From a virus: a stretch of 64,000 nt of DNA. Shown piece after piece: positions 13,021 to 47,596 of the stretch (the stretch's first letter is position 1; every line of letters begins with the position of its first letter). The notes under the pieces were generated by a model. That model saw only the letters and a program-made list of their open reading frames with translations, was not told the DNA's origin and did no database searches. The translations under genes and the position numbers were made by a program. The stretch is from the IMG/VR virus record IMGVR_UViG_3300045241_000217, positions 32,001 through 96,000 of that record. One strand, 5' to 3'.

Positions 13021-14922
13021 TCAGCCGGTCGCCACGCCACCGTCAGCGGCCTCGCCCAGCCGGCCAGCCGCGTCGGCCGCCTGGTGGAGCAGCCGCTGGA
13101 GATCGAGCGCCGCATGCGGGCCGCTCTCGTAGTGCTGCGACGGCGCGTCACCGCTTCGGCGAGCGGCCGCACGGTCCGCTGGCGAGAGCACCGACGTCGG
13201 CGTCTGTCCCTCGCGCGTGCCGTCGGGGAGGCGAGCGCCGAACATCGCGTCAGCCGCCTCATCGGCTGCCGATCGCATGGTGTCGATCGGATGCGCCAAC
13301 GTGCTCAATGGCGTCGCGCCTCCGCCGCCCGCTCCACCGCCCGGGGGCGTGATGCCGAGGAACTGGAACACGCCGTTCATGAGCGTCCCGAGGTTCTCGA
13401 CGAGGTAGGCCGCGACGCGTTCGATCTGCGGGAGCAGAGCGGCCACCTGGTCCATCTCGGTGTTCCGGATCGACTGGTAGCTGCTCGCGAGGCTCTGGCC
13501 CACGCCCGCGCTGCGGTTGCGGTACGCAGCCTCGGCCGAGCCCACTGACGCTGCGCCGCGTGCGCCACGCCCGCGCCTGCTCAGGAAGTCGGAGCCCTCC
13601 TGCGTTCCCACGCCCCCGTGCAACTGCGACGCGTCGCCGCCCTCCAGCGCATCGATGTCGGTCTCGGTCAGTTGCTGGCCGGTGAGTTCGGGCCCGAGCG
13701 ATCGGATGAGCTGTCGGATGGACTCGCGGTTGCCGCCGCCCGCGGTGCGCAGTTGCCGCACGGCGTTCTCCATCACCTGGTCGGGTGTCTCTTGCAGACG
13801 GCGCATCGCGTCCGAGTACGTGACGCCCCGCTGCCCGTAGCCAGCGGCTTGGAGCGCGACGATCGACGAGACGTTCCCGCTCGGCCGGAAGTGCCTGAGG
13901 TTCGACGTCGCGGAGCCCGCGAGGCTCATCGCGCGCTCGCCGCCGAGACCCATGCGCCCGAGCCCCTGCACGAGCTGCTCGATCGACTCCGCCGAGAGAT
14001 CGGCGCCCTCCATGCGCGCGCTGTCGAGCGAGGAACTCAGGGCCTCCACGTACTCTGGGAGGCGAGCCTCTCGCACGCCGGCCACCATGCCGGCGGTGAT
14101 GGCATGCTGGATCAGCCGCGTCGGATTGTCGGCGTGTCCGCCGGACGTTGTCTGCGCGCGCAGGAGCCCCGCTCCGTTGATGCCCGCGCCGAACTGCGCT
14201 TCGAGCAGCGTCCCCTGCGTGCGCGGATCGAGCTCTTCACCCGTCATACCCGCACCCTGCGCGAAGGCACCGTACTGCGTGGCAGCCTGCCCAGCGTCGA
14301 GCCCGTAGCGTCCGTACCGACCGCTCGTGCGACCACCGCTGCCCAACGCGCCGTACGCGGCCGCACGAGCCTGCTCCTGCGCGACGTACTGCTGATAGTG
14401 CTGCCCGGCCGCGCCCATCGCCCCGCCGAGCACGCCGCCTACGACGGGGATGGAGCTCACCGCCGACTGATAGAACCCGCCCTGGCCTAGCTGGCTGAAG
14501 AGCCCGCCCGCCGTGCTGCCGAGCCGCGAGGCCATCGGGTTCCCGCCGCCACCGCCAGCGGGACCGCCGCCGCGGTTGCCGAGCAGCCGGGTCAGATCCC
14601 GGACGGCCGCAGCCATGTCATTGGCGCCCCCGAACGGTGGCCCGCCGCCTCCGCCACGCGGCCCACCCTGTGGCTGGTTGCTGGGCGGGAAGAACGAGCC
14701 TCCGAAGTGCCCGCCGCCTCCACCGCGCCCGCCCATCGTCTGCTCGAGCCGGCCCGCCGCCTTGGTCAGCGCCTCGATGTGGCGAGCGCTGCGTTCGAGC
14801 GAGCGCTCGAACGCCTGGAGCATCTTCTCGTCGAACGCGCGGTGCAAAGTCGCGTCGAGGCCCTTCAGCGCGCGGTCGTCCACGCTGTACTGAAGGGTCG
14901 TCTTGATCTTCTGATCCGTCAT
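13021..14922 (-). CDS. Tape measure protein
   Basis: Ala/Gly-rich helical 633 aa between chaperones and hub. Confidence 0.75.
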   Translation of the reverse strand: MTDQKIKTTLQYSVDDRALKGLDATLHRAFDEKMLQAFERSLERSARHIEALTKAAGRLEQTMGGRGGGGGHFGGSFFPPSNQPQGGPRGGGGGPPFGGANDMAAAVRDLTRLLGNRGGGPAGGGGGNPMASRLGSTAGGLFSQLGQGGFYQSAVSSIPVVGGVLGGAMGAAGQHYQQYVAQEQARAAAYGALGSGGRTSGRYGRYGLDAGQAATQYGAFAQGAGMTGEELDPRTQGTLLEAQFGAGINGAGLLRAQTTSGGHADNPTRLIQHAITAGMVAGVREARLPEYVEALSSSLDSARMEGADLSAESIEQLVQGLGRMGLGGERAMSLAGSATSNLRHFRPSGNVSSIVALQAAGYGQRGVTYSDAMRRLQETPDQVMENAVRQLRTAGGGNRESIRQLIRSLGPELTGQQLTETDIDALEGGDASQLHGGVGTQEGSDFLSRRGRGARGAASVGSAEAAYRNRSAGVGQSLASSYQSIRNTEMDQVAALLPQIERVAAYLVENLGTLMNGVFQFLGITPPGGGAGGGGATPLSTLAHPIDTMRSAADEAADAMFGARLPDGTREGQTPTSVLSPADRAAARRSGDAPSQHYESGPHAALDLQRLLHQAADAAGRLGEAADGGVATG

Positions 14923-15107
14923 CGCGCTCAGAGCGTAGCGCGTTCCTTGCCCGCGCCGTTGCTCGTGCTACCTGTCGATCGTCTGTCCCGCCCCAAGGGG
15001 TTCTACACGGTGCTCCTACACCCGATCGATCCGATGCGCGCATGCCTACGACCCCAAGGTCGCGGGACAGACCTTGCTCGCGTCGGATCGATCAGTTGGA
15101 GGCGCCC

Positions 15108-15734
15108 ATGTTGCGCATCGAAGTCGAGATCGAAGGCCGTACCCCGCTGCTGATGAATCGCATGTCGCCCGAGGCCCTGGAGGGCCTGCGGACGAAAGCG
15201 AAGGCCCCGAAGTCCAAGACCCAAGCGTCGCAGACACCCCGCGAGCAAGCTGAGGCTCACGTCTACAAGCGCACGGACGGCGCGCCGTACTTGCCGGTAG
15301 AGAATCTGCTCTCGTGCCTGATCGCAGCGGGCGTGTTCATCCGACTCGACGGCAAGCGTCAGATGAGCACAGGCAAGAGCACGACAGTGCCTGGACTGTT
15401 CGAGATCGAGGAATCGTGGCTCCCGCTCGTCACGCCATCGGAGAACGGTGCGCGCCCACCGCTCACGTGGGATCCCGACATTCGCCAGGGCCGCAATCCG
15501 AACGGCGGGGAGGCGGTGTGCATCGTGCGGCCGCGCTTCGATCGTTGGGCAGCCTCGCTCACGATCTGCATCGACACCGAGCAGATCGACGAGGCGAAGA
15601 TTCGCGATCTCTTCGACATCGCCGGCAAGCGCATCGGGCTCGGTGACTTCCGCCCGTCGCGCAAGGGTATCTTCGGCAAGTTCAACGTGGCCCGCTGGGA
15701 ACGCCTCGACGCGATCTCTCAAGCCGCGGAGTAG
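15108..15734 (+). CDS. Stand-alone Cas7/RAMP-like RNA-binding protein (candidate effector of the adjacent periodic RNA array)
   Basis: GGAGG SD; RAMP-like N-terminal IEIEG-x-TPLLM strand, YLP-x-ENL-x-x-CL helix, RPRF-x-x-W, and Gly-rich loop G-x-x-IGLGDFRP-x-x-x-G-x-FGKF. Confidence 0.8.
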   Translation: MLRIEVEIEGRTPLLMNRMSPEALEGLRTKAKAPKSKTQASQTPREQAEAHVYKRTDGAPYLPVENLLSCLIAAGVFIRLDGKRQMSTGKSTTVPGLFEIEESWLPLVTPSENGARPPLTWDPDIRQGRNPNGGEAVCIVRPRFDRWAASLTICIDTEQIDEAKIRDLFDIAGKRIGLGDFRPSRKGIFGKFNVARWERLDAISQAAE

Positions 15735-15744
15735 TTTACTCCCG

Positions 15745-15870
15745 GGCTGTGAATGGCTCGGCAGCGCAGCGTTCTGCTCTGTACCGCTTGCCTACGCTCG
15801 GCAGGGTTTCGTGTGGCCTGCGCCGCGGCGCTCCGCATGGTCTGGTGCGGCACTGCAACGCAACGCAAGG
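15745..15870 (+). ncRNA. Periodic tract 1: 25 x (NGY-NN) ending CAAGG
   Basis: 23/25 triplets are NGY; one 1-nt register slip at 15818. Confidence 0.8.
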
Positions 15871-15938
15871 GCCCCGTGATGGGGATGGTTCGCTCCGAGC
15901 ATTGGGCTCGTTGCCGGTTTCGAGGACCGGACGGGGCA
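15871..15938 (+). ncRNA. tRNA-like spacer 1
   Basis: 7-bp GCCCCGT/ACGGGGC stem stacked on CCGGT-TTCGAGG-ACCGG T-arm; degenerate D and anticodon arms. Confidence 0.65.
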
Positions 15939-15950
15939 TCACGGAAGGAG

Positions 15951-16077
15951 TGTGGTGCGAGGTAGCGCGGTGTTCCGCAGCGCAGCGCCGGGTCGGGCGG
16001 GGTCGCGCACCGCTAGGTTCTGTAGCGCTCTGCGACGTGTCGCGGGGTAAGGCGACCCATCGCTCTGCTCTCCAAGG
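15951..16077 (+). ncRNA. Periodic tract 2: 25 x (NGY-NN) ending CAAGG
   Basis: 23/25 triplets NGY in unbroken 5-nt register. Confidence 0.85.
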
Positions 16078-16094
16078 AGCCCTGGTGGCTGGTG

Positions 16095-16140
16095 GCTACG
16101 AGAGTCGGTCTCTCGGCGGGTTCGATGCCCGCTCGTAGCG
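16095..16140 (+). ncRNA. tRNA-like spacer 2 (acceptor stem + T-arm)
   Basis: GCTACGA/TCGTAGC 7-bp stem adjoining GCGGG-TTCGATG-CCCGC. Confidence 0.7.
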
Positions 16141-16143
16141 TCT

Positions 16144-16225
16144 CGCGAGGTCGTGCTGGGCGAGGCGCGGCACTGGGCTGTGCGGTGACGTTCAGCGGTG
16201 CGCGGTACGGTGATGCAATCCAAGG
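16144..16225 (+). ncRNA. Periodic tract 3: 16 x (NGY-NN) ending CAAGG
   Basis: 14/16 triplets NGY; followed by a small GGCC-CTGC-GGCC hairpin. Confidence 0.8.
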
Positions 16226-16241
16226 GGCCCTGCGGCCAACA

Positions 16242-16703
16242 TCACCGATCGCCACGCGGGAGGGATCCGAGCAGAGCGCCGACGCGCTCTGCGCCAGGGC
16301 GAGGCGCTTCTTCCGGCTCGTCCTCGTCGGTCATCGCGAAACGAAGAGGCGGCTTGCTGGGATCGGTCTCGGAAAGCTCGAGGGCGTCCCACTCGGCGTC
16401 GCCCGTGAGGTGCGGTGCGTCGGCGAAGGCTCGCCCCTCCTCCGTGTTGTTCACGCGGAAGCGCCCACCCGACACCGGAGCCGGGAGCGTCTCTCCATCC
16501 ATCGTCACCTGCGCCGGTGCCTCGCGAACATCTCGACGAGGCGTCTGCTGCGGTCGGTTCTTGGACCGCACGCGCTCTAGGGCGTCGAGCCCGTAGACCT
16601 GCTCAAGCGCCTCCCTCATCGTCACCTGCGAGAGTCTCTCGTCGCTTGGAGGGAGGCGGAACCTTTCGGCCCACAGGAGCTTCACCACCTCCAGCGGGGG
16701 CAT
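16242..16703 (-). CDS. Tail assembly chaperone, second (GT-like) ORF, possibly made by frameshift
   Basis: W-x-x-x-F-x-LPPSD-x-R-L motif; overlaps the upstream chaperone in another frame; precedes TMP. Confidence 0.6.
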   Translation of the reverse strand: MPPLEVVKLLWAERFRLPPSDERLSQVTMREALEQVYGLDALERVRSKNRPQQTPRRDVREAPAQVTMDGETLPAPVSGGRFRVNNTEEGRAFADAPHLTGDAEWDALELSETDPSKPPLRFAMTDEDEPEEAPRPGAERVGALLGSLPRGDR

Positions 16704-17157
16704 CGTCCGTTCCTCGAACGCCTTCGCCAGCATCTCCGGTGAGCGCGTCCCCGAAACGAAATCGAGCCTCGTGTTCACGGCACCTCCCGAACAACGAGAA
16801 GTAGGGCGTCATGTCGTACGAATGTTCTCCGTCCGGCGCATACCAGTCGGGCCTCGGGAACTCCTTGGAGAAGCGAATGGCCACGCTGAGGTACGTGAGC
16901 GCCTCGACCTTCCGCCCGCCCAACTGATCGAACGAGGCGCCGTCGGGGAGGATGTTGGCGCGGAGTTGTGTGATGCGCGTCTCTTCCGCGATGCTCGGGA
17001 CCTTGTAGTGGAAGCGGCCCACGTACTTGCGGCCGCGCTCTCCCACGACGTCGAGATCGATCATCTTGATCGGCGACACGTCCTCGTCCGCGTCCGTCTT
17101 TTTCTTCTCGCCCCGCGCTTGGAGCTCGCGCTCCGCATCTTCGATGGTGCTCGCCAT
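16603..17157 (-). CDS. Tail assembly chaperone (G-like)
   Basis: Between tube and TMP; G-x-F-x-x-K-x-PS...P-x-W pattern; GGAG SD. Confidence 0.65.
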   Translation of the reverse strand: MASTIEDAERELQARGEKKKTDADEDVSPIKMIDLDVVGERGRKYVGRFHYKVPSIAEETRITQLRANILPDGASFDQLGGRKVEALTYLSVAIRFSKEFPRPDWYAPDGEHSYDMTPYFSLFGRCREHEARFRFGDALTGDAGEGVRGTDDAPAGGGEAPVGRKVPPPSKRRETLAGDDEGGA

Positions 17158-19116: not shown

Positions 19117-19710
19117 TCAGGCCGCAGCCTTGTCCTGGGCCTTGCGAACACGGGCGTACAGCGTGAAGTAGTTGATCCCCGTCGCGACCGACGCGTCCTT
19201 GATGGATGCGTACGTGACTCCTTCGAGTGTCACGGGGACCTTCGGTTTCCCGGAGCGGCGTTTCTCTGGCGACAGTGCAACACGCGGCTCCTGCCGAAGC
19301 ACCCTGAGTCGGTGGTCGAGTGTGTTGTGATGGATGCCCGTCTCGGCAGACCAGTCCGCGATCGTCATTCGGCGACCGTCGTGCTCAACCCACACATTCC
19401 GCCGCGTGTTTCGTTTGTTCTGGGCCCTGGTGGCCCACCGAACGTTGCCAGGCTCGTAGCCCTTGCTGTTGTCGATGCGGTCGATCTCGTGAAGTGGACT
19501 TGGGCGCTTGCCCACCTCTGCGACGAAGGACGCTGGATCGACGAGCCATCCTTGGTGCACATCGATCCCGCGTCCGCCGTAATCCTTGAAGGAAGGATGG
19601 CTTGCCTGCCGGCAGCGATTGGTGATGTAGCGGAGCACGCGATACTCCACTGTCCGTGAGAGGCCGTGCCTCCGGATCGGTCGGCCAAGCGTGTCGAGTC
19701 GCTCGCTCAC
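19117..19710 (-). CDS. HNH homing endonuclease (YGGRGI type) with C-terminal NUMOD1-like domain
   Basis: HG...RC...YGGRGI...IDRIDN-x-x-GYEPGNVRWAT...N; GTGA-coupled to the sheath stop. Confidence 0.85.
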   Translation of the reverse strand: MSERLDTLGRPIRRHGLSRTVEYRVLRYITNRCRQASHPSFKDYGGRGIDVHQGWLVDPASFVAEVGKRPSPLHEIDRIDNSKGYEPGNVRWATRAQNKRNTRRNVWVEHDGRRMTIADWSAETGIHHNTLDHRLRVLRQEPRVALSPEKRRSGKPKVPVTLEGVTYASIKDASVATGINYFTLYARVRKAQDKAAA

Positions 19711-43323: not shown

Positions 43324-43404
43324 CGTGCTAGAAATAGGTCGGCTCGCGAACGCCTGAGAACGTCGCGAGCCGCGCCTCGAAACCTCCTCGAAAGGTTCCA
43401 AGAC
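43324..43404 (+). promoter_or_regulatory. Conserved HNH-gene leader, copy 2
   Basis: CGTGCTAGAAATAGGTCGGCTCGC + two hairpins + AGACATG. Confidence 0.7.
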
Positions 43405-43824
43405 ATGACAGCGATAGCACGTGCGAAGACCGGCCCGAAGCCTCGTCCGCTCGCTGAGCGTTTCTGGGCGAAGGTGGATCGGCGTGGACCCGACGAGTGC
43501 TGGCTGTGGACCGGCGGCTTCACCGAGTTTGGCTACGGTCGTATCGGTGCCGGAGGCAACACGGGGGCGATTCTCCGCGCGCATCGCGTTGCATGGATCC
43601 TGGTCTTCGCGGCGACCGGCTCTAGCGAAGACATCGCCGCACGCAACGGAACCTCGGCGGCACACGTGTGCAGCATCAAACGCGGAGAATCCTGGCAACA
43701 CCTTGGACTGCTTCGCGAAGGCCCGCCGGGTCGCACTACCCGTAACCCACGCCGACGTTTTGATCGCGAACATGCTCTTGCGCTTCGGAGCGCTGGTGGC
43801 AGTTGGGCTAGTGTCGGTCGTTAG
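43405..43824 (+). pseudogene. HNH endonuclease with in-frame deletion of the catalytic HNH core
   Basis: AHRVAWIL joined directly to VFAATG (HTH part); the H-x-CDN...CCNP-x-HL segment present in paralog 22196 is absent. Confidence 0.75.
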
Positions 43825-46945: not shown

Positions 46946-47596
46946 ATGACGGTGGTTCTCCTCTCGGGCGGCCAGGACTCGACGACGTGTCTCTTCTGGG
47001 CGAAGCGGCACCTCGGTGGCGCGAAGCCTCCGATCGCGCTCTTCGTGCACTACGGACAGCGCCACGCGCGCGAGTACGAGTCGGCGCGCGTGATCGCAGG
47101 ACTTGCGGAGACGCCGTTCTACGAGGCGCGCGTGGAGTTCCCGACCGCGTCGAGCCTCACGCGCGACGAACCGATCACGACGCGCGCGGACGGGCTGCCC
47201 TCGACGTTCGTCGCGGGCCGCAACGGTGTGCTCCTCTGGCTCGCTGGCGGGCTCGCGAAGGAACACGGGCATGCGTCGATCGTCATCGGCTGCTCGAGCG
47301 TGGACTTCTCGGGCTACCCGGACTGCCGTCCGAAGTACCTCTATCACGAGCGTGACGCGCTTGAACGCGGGCTCGACACGCCGGACTTCCAAGTCCACGC
47401 GCCGCTCATCGATCGCAGCAAGGCGCAGACGGTGAAGATGGCGCGCGAGCTGGGCGAGACGTGTTGGACCGCGCTCGGCATGTCGTGGACCTGCTACCTC
47501 GGCGGAGAACGGCCGTGCGGTACGTGCCCGGCGTGCATGCTCCGCGCGAAGGGCTTCGCGGATGCCGGAGAGGAGGATCCGGCATGCACCCCGTGA
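46946..47596 (+). CDS. queC: 7-cyano-7-deazaguanine synthase
   Basis: LLSGGQDSTTC, YGQRH..E, TFV-x-GRN, YPDCR, SWTCY...CG-x-C-x-AC-x-LR. Confidence 0.95.
   Translation: MTVVLLSGGQDSTTCLFWAKRHLGGAKPPIALFVHYGQRHAREYESARVIAGLAETPFYEARVEFPTASSLTRDEPITTRADGLPSTFVAGRNGVLLWLAGGLAKEHGHASIVIGCSSVDFSGYPDCRPKYLYHERDALERGLDTPDFQVHAPLIDRSKAQTVKMARELGETCWTALGMSWTCYLGGERPCGTCPACMLRAKGFADAGEEDPACTP

What the first reader, a model, noticed from the sequence alone, without database searches (positions are those of the whole stretch)
15108..16237. Stand-alone Cas7/RAMP-like gene plus an array of NGY-NN 5-nt periodic RNAs: candidate phage RNA-guided system with a non-contiguous code
Seen: a 208-aa plus-strand ORF with RAMP/Cas7-like motifs, including a terminal Gly-rich loop, inserted antisense between the tail chaperones and the tape measure gene. 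No other cas genes or CRISPR repeats are in the window. Ten nt after its stop begin three tracts (15745-15870, 15951-16077, 16144-16225) of 25, 25 and 16 pentamers. In 60 of 66 units the first triplet is N-G-Y while the last two bases vary freely, and all three tracts end in CAAGG. Established: Cas7 proteins polymerise along guide RNA with a fixed nucleotide step and flip out periodic bases. Inference: each subunit binds an NGY triplet and displays the NN, so the concatenated NNs specify a gapped target, plausibly in competing phages or host defence genes. From memory this resembles recently reported viral 'VIPR' systems with GGY/NN repeats (unverified recollection). Here the first position is relaxed to mostly G/C/T and the tracts are long.
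Basis: partly seen in the sequence, partly recalled or inferred. Interest (0 to 1): 0.97.

Follow-up and report, generated by a model that had tools for sequence, protein, structure and literature searches.

The report
Phage VIPR locus with tRNA-like spacers
A 109-kb soil phage carries a genuine example of the VIPR RNA-guided DNA-silencing systems first described in 2026 (a lone Cas7-like protein plus pentamer-repeat guide RNAs); the class is already known, and the only unusual features here are its position inside the tail genes and tRNA-shaped spacers between the guides.

Summary
ORF 15108-15734 (+) encodes a 208-aa RAMP protein. Ten nt after its stop lie three NGY-NN pentamer tracts, the only such tracts in the 109-kb phage genome.

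VIPR is described in three 2026 bioRxiv preprints, and a fourth recovers VIPR arrays. This protein is a Vipr homolog:
- A family profile hits the solved SUSP1 Vipr (PDB 36pp) at E 5.6e-8; hhalign gives 97% probability.
- The AF2 model matches Csm3/Cmr4 (Z 10.8).
- The G2/Y3 contact residues are conserved.

Of 86 distinct homolog loci, 79 carry such tracts beside the gene. The relaxed first position (YNNNG) and non-canonical units are already in print. This is therefore a new member of a known kind, not a new system. This scan has also noted VIPR-like loci in over 300 other genomes.

Local findings:
- No vap gene lies nearby.
- The cassette is a 1.3-kb antisense insertion between the tail chaperone and tape-measure genes, and three related phages lack it.
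- Two inter-guide spacers are tRNA-like (7-bp acceptor stem plus T-arm). They may be RNase P/Z processing signals, which is unproven and not seen in relatives.

No targets were found under the 1-nt skip rule in the phage's own genome, in three related genomes, or by IMG/VR seed scans.

The parts
14923..15107 (+). Leader / intergenic region upstream of vipr. It contains a 31-nt-arm imperfect hairpin (15012-15042 / 15075-15105) whose 3' arm covers the GGAGG ribosome-binding site.
   Evidence: Inverted repeat I1. Fold dG -56.5 kcal/mol, z -5.3, 0 of 200 shuffles as stable. No sigma-70-like promoter was called.
15108..15734 (+). vipr gene: a 208-aa single-RRM RAMP protein with a thumb hairpin (~122-144, invariant NPNGGE tip) and a G-loop (GLGDFRP, 177-183).
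   Evidence: PHROG 4652, E 3.6e-22. SUSP1 Vipr PDB 36pp: E 0.0028 with the single sequence, 5.6e-8 with the profile. hhalign 97.2%, E 3e-11 over 179 columns. AF2 pLDDT 85. Foldseek and VIA top hits are all Cas7-type RAMPs, Z up to 10.8.
15745..15814 (+). vrRNA tract 1a: 14 NGY-NN units, followed by a 4-nt register break (GGCC, 15815-15818).
   Evidence: The break could be a junction of two directly abutting ('staggered') vrRNAs or a 1-nt deletion; this is unresolved.
15819..15870 (+). vrRNA tract 1b: 10 NGY-NN units plus terminal GG. It ends in CAAGG.
15871..15937 (+). tRNA-like element 1. It has a 7-bp acceptor-like stem, a D-arm-like hairpin with GG in the loop, a short anticodon-like arm (5-nt loop), and a T-arm (5 bp, loop TTCGAGG). 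It starts directly after the CAAGG of tract 1b.
   Evidence: Strict motif scan. MFE cloverleaf -32.3 kcal/mol, z -1.75. Not called by ARAGORN. Only sub-threshold Rfam hits.
15951..16077 (+). vrRNA tract 2: 25 NGY-NN units plus GG. It ends in CAAGG. An internal GTAAGG at units 20-21 may mark a vrRNA boundary.
16078..16139 (+). Spacer 2: a small hairpin (16078-16090), then mini tRNA-like element 2 (16095-16139). The element has a 7-bp acceptor-like stem, a 3-bp hairpin, and a T-arm (5 bp, loop TTCGATG).
   Evidence: Strict motif scan. Fold -24.3 kcal/mol, z -2.8. The best plus-strand Rfam hits are tRNA-like families far below threshold: mascRNA 18.5 bits, tRNA-Sec 14.6-16.3 bits.
16144..16225 (+). 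vrRNA tract 3: 16 NGY-NN units plus GG. It ends in CAAGG. Two further in-register NGY units from 16134 overlap the 3' strand of tRNA-like element 2.
16226..16300 (+). 3' structured end of the cassette: a closing 6-bp stem (GCCCUG/CAGGGC) around a 9-bp GC hairpin (16270-16292). It is a possible transcript end. It overlaps the non-conserved last ~31 codons of the minus-strand chaperone ORF.
   Evidence: Fold -36.7 kcal/mol, z -2.0. The chaperone alignment to relatives stops at residue ~147 of 178.

Best explanation
This is a VIPR (Viral Interference Programmable Repeat) system: a vipr gene followed on the same strand by an array of three to five vrRNAs.

Shown here:
- The protein is a homolog of the solved SUSP1 Vipr.
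- It has the RAMP fold and keeps the residues that hold G2 and Y3 of each repeat.
- The repeats are statistically unmistakable and are a conserved companion of this protein family.
- The cassette is an accessory insertion in the tail module of a complete 109-kb phage.

Inferred from the published mechanism:
- vipr and the array are transcribed as one plus-strand RNA. Only 10 nt separate the stop codon from the first unit.
- The RNA is cut into vrRNAs that end in ...CAAGG.
- One Vipr protomer binds each pentamer. It buries N-G-Y and displays the NN dinucleotides.
- The filament binds double-stranded DNA in which each NN is followed by one skipped base.
- With no nuclease or helicase partner gene at the locus, binding most likely silences transcription of a competitor element (satellite, prophage or rival phage) or of a host gene.

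More speculative: the two tRNA-shaped spacers recruit host RNase P and RNase Z to release the guides. They would take the place of the hammerhead ribozymes or structured tails used by other VIPR arrays.
For: Homology and fold:
- Profile against PDB 36pp 'SUSP1 Vipr protein': E 5.6e-8.
- hhalign against a 95%-identical SUSP1-clade Vipr: 97.2% probability, E 3e-11, full length.
- AF2 model pLDDT 85. Its best structural matches are Cmr4, Csm3, type VII and type IV Cas7 (Foldseek E ~1e-5; VIA Z 10.8, with 22 chains at Z>=8, nearly all CRISPR RAMPs).

Contact residues, mapped from the cryo-EM paper through the alignment:
- R138->R141, D177->D180, W178->F181, R179->R182, E71->E65.
- R141, F181 and R182 are invariant in all 64 relatives tabulated; D180 is D in 63 of 64, E in one.

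Repeats:
- P = 3.6e-36, and unique in the genome.
- 79 of 86 distinct homolog loci have a tract within 1.5 kb.
- Tract density is 0.87/kb near the gene and 0.036/kb further away. Only 1 tract occurs in 1.02 Mb of unrelated viral DNA.
- The tract finder recovers the published-type vrRNAs beside a SUSP1-clade vipr.
- 42% of relatives' tracts end in AAGG, against a 4.6% background.

Context:
- Complete virus record with terminal repeats and a single vipr copy.
- No CRISPR-like array.
- No self-target, as the paper also reports for its systems.
- Three related phages have the chaperone and tape-measure genes adjacent, and no vipr.

Published mechanism.
Against: - There is no expression or binding data for this locus. 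The only sequencing run holding it is the source soil metagenome (DNA).
[quoted passage not shown] - The G1-contacting His17 of SUSP1 Vipr is Asn here, and position 1 of the repeat is only 37% G. The exact read-out, and possibly the skip rule, could therefore differ from the type II system on which the rule was established.
- Tract 1 has a register break.
- The tails are not an invariant pseudoknot as in SUSP1.
- tRNA-like spacers were found in none of 86 related loci. They score far below Rfam thresholds.
Confidence: 0.88

Rival explanations
1. It is a decaying or inactive VIPR remnant. The gene is intact, but the array has drifted (register break, relaxed position 1, heterogeneous tails) and no longer guides anything.
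For: - A 4-nt unit sits at 15815-15818, and several units are not NGY.
- No target was found.
- The three tails differ.
Against: - The ORF is intact, with invariant family residues.
- 59 of 65 units keep G2-Y3.
- All tracts keep the family-typical CAAGG end.
- Relaxed position 1 is normal across this clade: G1 ranges from 0 to 100% between loci with the same contact residues.
- The paper itself notes frequent internal degeneracy of vrRNAs.
Confidence: 0.05
2. It is a VIPR-like RNP that acts on RNA rather than DNA (transcript binding or cleavage). The closest structural relatives are type III Cas7 proteins (Csm3/Cmr4).
For: The top fold matches are RNA-targeting Csm3/Cmr4 and type VII Cas7.
Against: - The only experimentally characterised Viprs bind dsDNA and silence from either strand.
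- Sequence homology is to Vipr, not to Csm3.
- Whether the Csm3 catalytic Asp is present was not examined. No such residue is described for Vipr.
Confidence: 0.04
3. The periodic tracts are not guides at all. They could be DNA-level protein-binding arrays or structural DNA, with the RAMP protein having another role, for example a Cas7 decoy acting as an anti-CRISPR.
For: There is no transcript evidence for this locus. A lone Cas7 mimic could in principle interfere with Cascade or Csm assembly.
Against: - Strand-specific placement beside and in the same orientation as the gene is seen in 79 of 86 relatives.
- Homologous systems have been shown by sRNA-seq, pull-down and cryo-EM to be RNA-protein filaments.
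- The conserved residues are the RNA-contacting ones.
Confidence: 0.02

Closest known systems
VIPR type II system of Escherichia phage SUSP1 (Vipr + vap1 + GGY/NN vrRNAs; bioRxiv 10.64898/2026.04.26.720920, .720927, 10.64898/2026.10.15.759431; PDB 36pp)
   Same: - A ~20-kDa single-RRM RAMP with thumb and G-loop.
- Conserved G2/Y3 contact residues.
- Same-strand arrays of pentamer repeats with two variable positions.
- Phage-encoded, with no CRISPR array and no self-target.
   Different: - Only remote sequence similarity (25% identity over 179 hhalign columns).
- His17 is replaced by Asn, and repeat position 1 is relaxed (NGY rather than GGY).
- Tracts of 10-25 units, against 9-16.
- No vap gene.
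- The tail is a short CAAGG plus variable structures rather than an invariant ~40-nt pseudoknot.
- The cassette is inserted antisense in the tail module.
VIPR arrays with non-canonical units and ribozyme-interspersed or staggered architectures (YNNNG/NNNGG/NNNNG repeats; hammerhead arrays in types I and V; fig. S17-S19 of 10.64898/2026.04.26.720920; WGT/NN and similar units in 10.64898/2026.10.21.760802)
   Same: - N-G-Y-N-N is the YNNNG unit in another phase.
- Guides are separated by self-contained structured RNA modules.
- A vap-less layout is what I infer for type I, because six vap genes are described for seven types.
   Different: - The spacers here are not hammerheads (no Rfam ribozyme hit at E<=10). 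They are tRNA-shaped.
- The type could not be assigned because the paper's tree and tables are not held.
Class 1 CRISPR backbone subunits (Cas7: Csm3, Cmr4, Csf2, type VII Cas7)
   Same: - RRM core, thumb hairpin and glycine-rich loop.
- Polymerisation along a guide with periodic base flipping (fold).
   Different: - No CRISPR repeats, no other cas genes and no adaptation module.
- A 5-nt rather than 6-nt step.
- Three guide bases are hidden per step, and one target base is skipped.
tRNA-punctuated RNA processing (MALAT1 mascRNA, mitochondrial tRNA punctuation, synthetic polycistronic tRNA-gRNA arrays)
   Same: An acceptor-stem/T-arm module sits between functional RNAs, where RNase P and RNase Z cuts would release them. 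The best plus-strand Rfam hit for spacer 2 is mascRNA.
   Different: - The resemblance is structural only, and scores are far below family thresholds.
- No cleavage data exist.
- The feature is not conserved in related VIPR loci.

Membership tests
VIPR system | Vipr protein: a small single-RRM RAMP with thumb and glycine-rich loop | tested here: met
   AF2 model with pLDDT 85 shows beta1-alpha1-(hairpin 122-144)-beta-alpha2-G-loop-beta4. Top Foldseek and VIA matches are Cas7-type RAMPs, E ~1e-5 and Z 10.8.
VIPR system | Sequence homology to an experimentally characterised Vipr | tested here: met
   PDB 36pp SUSP1 Vipr: phmmer E 0.0028, family profile E 5.6e-8. hhalign 97.2% probability, E 3e-11, against a protein 95% identical to 36pp.
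VIPR system | Residues that hold the fixed triplet (SUSP1 H17, D177 for G1; R138, W178 for G2; R179, E71, M72 for Y3) | tested here: met
   R141, D180, F181 (aromatic in place of W), R182 and E65 are aligned. R141, F181 and R182 are invariant among the 64 relatives tabulated; D180 is D in 63, E in one. H17 is N17 and M72 is N66, consistent with a relaxed position 1.
VIPR system | Tandem pentanucleotide repeats (GGY/NN or a related consensus) next to vipr on the same strand | tested here: met
   59 of 65 units are N-G-Y-N-N. They start 10 nt after the stop codon. P = 3.6e-36, and they are unique in the genome. The unit equals the published YNNNG variant.
VIPR system | The protein-repeat association is conserved across homologs | tested here: met
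   79 of 86 distinct loci have a tract within 1.5 kb. Tracts are 24-fold enriched near the gene. Only 1 tract occurs in 1.02 Mb of control viral DNA.
VIPR system | No CRISPR array or cas operon | tested here: met
   No CRISPR-like repeats in the window or the 109-kb genome. There is one RAMP gene copy. The neighbours are tail genes. Other cas families were not scanned genome-wide.
VIPR system | Accessory vap gene beside vipr (typical, but not universal) | tested here: not met
   No same-strand ORF with support lies within the cassette, and both flanking genes are minus-strand tail genes. An HNH gene 3.4 kb away lies on the minus strand, separated by several tail-module ORFs. Six vap genes for seven types implies that one vap-less type exists.
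VIPR system | Conserved structured 3' tail after the repeat tract | tested here: inconclusive
   All three tracts share CAAGG followed by a G/A then GCCCYG and a possible 4-bp hairpin. The longer tails differ, and no pseudoknot was identified. AAGG ends are enriched in relatives.
VIPR system | vrRNAs are expressed and co-purify with Vipr | not testable with these tools
   Only the source DNA run holds the sequence.
VIPR system | Targets obey the 1-nt skip (NNx) rule | tested here: inconclusive
   No match above shuffled guides in the phage's own genome, in three related genomes, or in 113 IMG/VR loci from the four 8-unit seed scans; two 9-unit seed scans found no match at all. Seed sensitivity is limited and the host is unknown.
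CRISPR-Cas class 1 effector (Cas7) | Encoded with a CRISPR array and other cas genes | tested here: not met
Hammerhead-interspersed VIPR array | Hammerhead ribozyme between vrRNAs | tested here: not met
   An Rfam scan of 14800-16400 at E<=10 lists no ribozyme.
tRNA (for the two spacers) | Passes tRNA covariance or ARAGORN models | tested here: not met
   ARAGORN finds 0 genes in the window. tRNA-Sec scores 14.6-16.3 bits against a cut-off of 47, and RF00005 is not listed. The spacers share only the acceptor-stem/T-arm geometry.

The most novel reading that the evidence does not exclude
The two spacers (15871-15937 and 16095-16139) are tRNA mimics that make host RNase P and RNase Z cut the primary transcript into individual vrRNAs. 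RNase P would generate the ...CAAGG 3' end. This would be a natural equivalent of synthetic tRNA-gRNA arrays and a third processing solution for VIPR arrays, beside structured tails and hammerheads. It was acquired by this phage lineage only.
Probability: 0.4. Interest if true: 0.6.

Novelty: new member of a known kind. Interest (0 to 1): 0.38.

Why it matters
The locus adds one well-delimited, vap-less VIPR cassette from a complete high-GC soil myovirus to a class whose biology is known from only a few enterobacterial and Pseudomonas examples.

Comparison with three relatives shows the cassette is a mobile, self-contained module. It has been dropped into an essential late operon in antisense orientation.

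If the tRNA-like spacers really are processing signals, they would show how a one-protein system without a Cas6-like nuclease matures multi-guide transcripts by borrowing host tRNA enzymes. That would be directly useful for multiplexing engineered VIPR guides.

The class itself, its code and its non-canonical repeat variants are already published.

Tried and rejected
- Single-sequence AF2 gave pLDDT 33 and was unusable. It was replaced by the alignment-based model.
- Pfam gave no hit.
- The Rfam scan of the locus gave only sub-threshold chance-level hits, with no hammerhead or other ribozyme.
- ARAGORN found no tRNA in the window.
- No sigma-70 promoter and no convincing terminator were called.
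The 92%- and 89%-identical homologs (P0001, P0002) could therefore not be inspected for conserved spacers.
- The look-up of sequencing runs listed no RNA holder, only the probable source DNA run.
- The paper's supplementary tables are not held, so the VIPR type and prior inclusion of this locus could not be checked.
- Target search under the NNx rule:
  - The phage's own genome gave best matches of 54-70%, the same as shuffles.
  - Two 9-unit IMG/VR seeds gave 0 hits.
  - Four 8-unit seeds gave 11, 49, 30 and 23 hits. None extended beyond chance.
  - 25 loci around the capsid gene of related phages gave nothing.
  - Three whole related genomes gave nothing.
- No upstream vrRNA was found in 14923-15107, although CAAGG occurs there twice (inspection).
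- A relaxed tRNA-like motif scan near tracts in 86 related loci gave 0 hits.
- The HNH gene at 19117-19700 was considered as a vap. It was rejected because it lies on the minus strand 3.4 kb from vipr, separated by several tail-module ORFs, and looks like a separate insertion.

Full report
**Observation.** The plus-strand ORF runs from ATG 15108 to TAG 15732-15734 (208 aa), with GGAGG 5 nt upstream. Ten nt after the stop begins a 480-nt non-coding stretch with strong 5-nt periodicity. Lag-5 identity is 0.41, against about 0.27 in the flanking DNA.

Read as pentamers, the units are N-G-Y-N-N. Tract 1 is two registers: 14 units at 15745-15814, a 4-nt break, then 10 units at 15819-15868. Tract 2 has 25 units from 15951. 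Tract 3 has 16 units from 16144. In all, 59 of 65 units fit, and each tract ends in CAAGG.

With a GY frequency of 0.193, the chance of 60 of 66 fitting is 3.6e-36. Shuffled windows reach tract scores of 5-9, against the observed 10, 10, 21 and 14. No comparable tract exists elsewhere on either strand of the 109-kb genome.

**The protein.** Pfam has nothing. PHROG 4652 ('unknown function') matches at E 3.6e-22. More than 560 homologs exist in metagenomes, and 331 in IMG/VR.

- The PDB sequence library holds 'SUSP1 Vipr protein' (36pp). The single sequence hits it at E 0.0028, and a 36-sequence family profile hits it at E 5.6e-8.
- hhalign of the profile against the Vipr of phage ESCO56 gives 97.2% probability and E 3e-11 over 179 columns. 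That protein is about 95% identical to 36pp with the same numbering.
- An alignment-based AF2 model (pLDDT 85) shows an RRM core, a beta-hairpin thumb and a glycine-rich loop.
- Its best structural neighbours are Cmr4, Csm3, type VII and type IV Cas7 (Foldseek E ~1e-5; VIA Z 10.8, with 22 chains at Z>=8, nearly all CRISPR RAMPs).

**Literature.** Four preprints are relevant.

- bioRxiv 10.64898/2026.04.26.720920 describes Vipr plus vrRNAs made of GGY/NN repeats. It establishes DNA recognition with one skipped base per unit, transcriptional silencing, anti-satellite and anti-prophage targets, and seven types. It also reports alternative NNNGG/YNNNG/NNNNG repeats, and staggered and hammerhead-interspersed arrays.
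- 10.64898/2026.04.26.720927 gives the filament structures and the contact residues.
- 10.64898/2026.10.15.759431 shows SUSP1 needs VIPR against a satellite, and describes solo vrRNAs.
- 10.64898/2026.10.21.760802 recovers 99 VIPR-like clusters, including non-canonical units.

None of the main texts mentions tRNA-like spacers.

**Mapping the mechanism onto this protein.** Through the hhalign alignment, SUSP1 R138, D177, W178, R179 and E71 correspond to R141, D180, F181, R182 and E65. R141, F181 and R182 are invariant in the 64 relatives examined; D180 is D in 63 and E in one. His17, which contacts G1, is Asn17 here and in nearly all relatives.

Repeat position 1 is only 37% G here. It ranges from 0 to 100% G among relatives that share the same contact residues. 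A relaxed first position is therefore a property of this clade, and it corresponds to the published YNNNG unit.

**Conservation of the association.** In 86 distinct homolog loci, 79 have at least one tract scoring 8 or more within 1.5 kb, on the gene's strand. Density is 0.87 per kb near the gene and 0.036 per kb further away. Only one tract occurs in 1.02 Mb of unrelated viral loci. The same finder recovers the known vrRNAs around a SUSP1-clade vipr. Tracts in relatives often end in AAGG (42%, against a 4.6% background).

**Context.** The window lies in a complete IMG/VR virus record: 109,170 bp, a 127-nt terminal repeat, CheckV 100% complete, from soil. No tyrosine integrase was found.

Identified genes include the major head protein, portal, sheath, baseplate, QueC and a 2195-aa ORF whose neighbouring gene carries a large-polyvalent-protein LPD1 domain.

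In three related phages (capsid protein 66-73% identical), the overlapping chaperone ORF pair and the tape-measure gene are about 17-55 nt apart, and those phages have no vipr. Here 1,319 nt separate the same genes. The cassette is thus an accessory antisense insertion. It has no vap gene.

**Spacers.** I ran a strict motif scan requiring a 7/7 acceptor stem, a 5-bp T-stem, a TTCRANN loop, and the T-arm abutting the 3' acceptor strand. It finds three sites in 218 kb (both strands of the genome). Two of them are exactly the two inter-tract spacers on the plus strand.

The background in 1.7 Mb of other viral DNA is about 6e-6 per position. By my estimate, two chance hits in about 150 nt have a probability near 1e-6 or lower.

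Element 1 folds as a cloverleaf with a shortened anticodon arm and begins directly after CAAGG. Element 2 is a 45-nt mini-helix. ARAGORN and Rfam do not accept either as a tRNA. No related locus has such elements near its tracts. RNase P/Z processing is therefore a plausible inference, not a result.

**Targets.** Under the NNx rule, no guide matches the phage's own genome better than shuffled guides do. This agrees with the paper's lack of self-targets. IMG/VR seed scans and three whole related genomes also gave nothing above chance. The host is unknown, so prophage, satellite or host targets could not be searched.

**Verdict.** This is a genuine VIPR locus and a new member of a published class. 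This scan has already noted VIPR-like loci in over 300 other genomes. The antisense insertion in the tail operon and the tRNA-shaped spacers are the points worth a bench test.

Noticed in passing
window 19117-19700 (-): An HNH endonuclease (PHROG 3377, E 3e-43) sits between the sheath gene and the next tail gene. In three related phages these two genes are about 27 nt apart, so this looks like a separate homing-endonuclease insertion.
   Followed up: partly
window 15012-15105: A very stable imperfect hairpin (31-nt arms, dG -56.5 kcal/mol, z -5.3) lies in the vipr leader and buries the ribosome-binding site. It also lies about 90 nt upstream of the minus-strand tape-measure start, so it could regulate either gene.
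   Followed up: partly
window 16242-17157 (-): Two overlapping ORFs in different frames (16603-17157 and 16242-16778) are both conserved in relatives and lie directly upstream of the tape-measure gene. This is the usual layout of a frameshifted tail-assembly chaperone pair. The last ~31 codons of the second ORF are not conserved and run into the inserted cassette.
   Followed up: partly
L002, L007, L008, L010-L014 versus other relatives: The residue aligned with SUSP1 Met72 (the Y3 pocket) is Met in loci whose repeats prefer U at position 3. It is Asn in most loci that prefer C. This may be protein-RNA co-variation, but the Met loci may form a single clade.
   Followed up: partly
L054 5887-5957: ARAGORN calls a tRNA-like gene with an abnormal anticodon loop 44 nt upstream of a vipr homolog. 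It is the only other tRNA-like element seen next to a VIPR gene in 95 loci.
   Followed up: partly
L011 5840-6220: A related VIPR array separates its vrRNAs with a near-identical ~28-nt hairpin-forming spacer repeated three times. This is an invariant tail, unlike the heterogeneous spacers in the window.
   Followed up: no
window 43374-43441 (-): This is the third and only other match in the genome to the strict acceptor-stem/T-arm motif. It was not examined further.
   Followed up: no
window 46946-47596 (+): A QueC homolog (Pfam E 5e-53) suggests the phage makes 7-deazaguanine-modified DNA.
   Followed up: no
window 15815-15818 and 16046-16055: Two features may mark junctions of directly abutting ('staggered') vrRNAs rather than errors: a 4-nt unit inside tract 1, and an internal GTAAGG inside tract 2. 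If so, the array would hold five guides.
   Followed up: no
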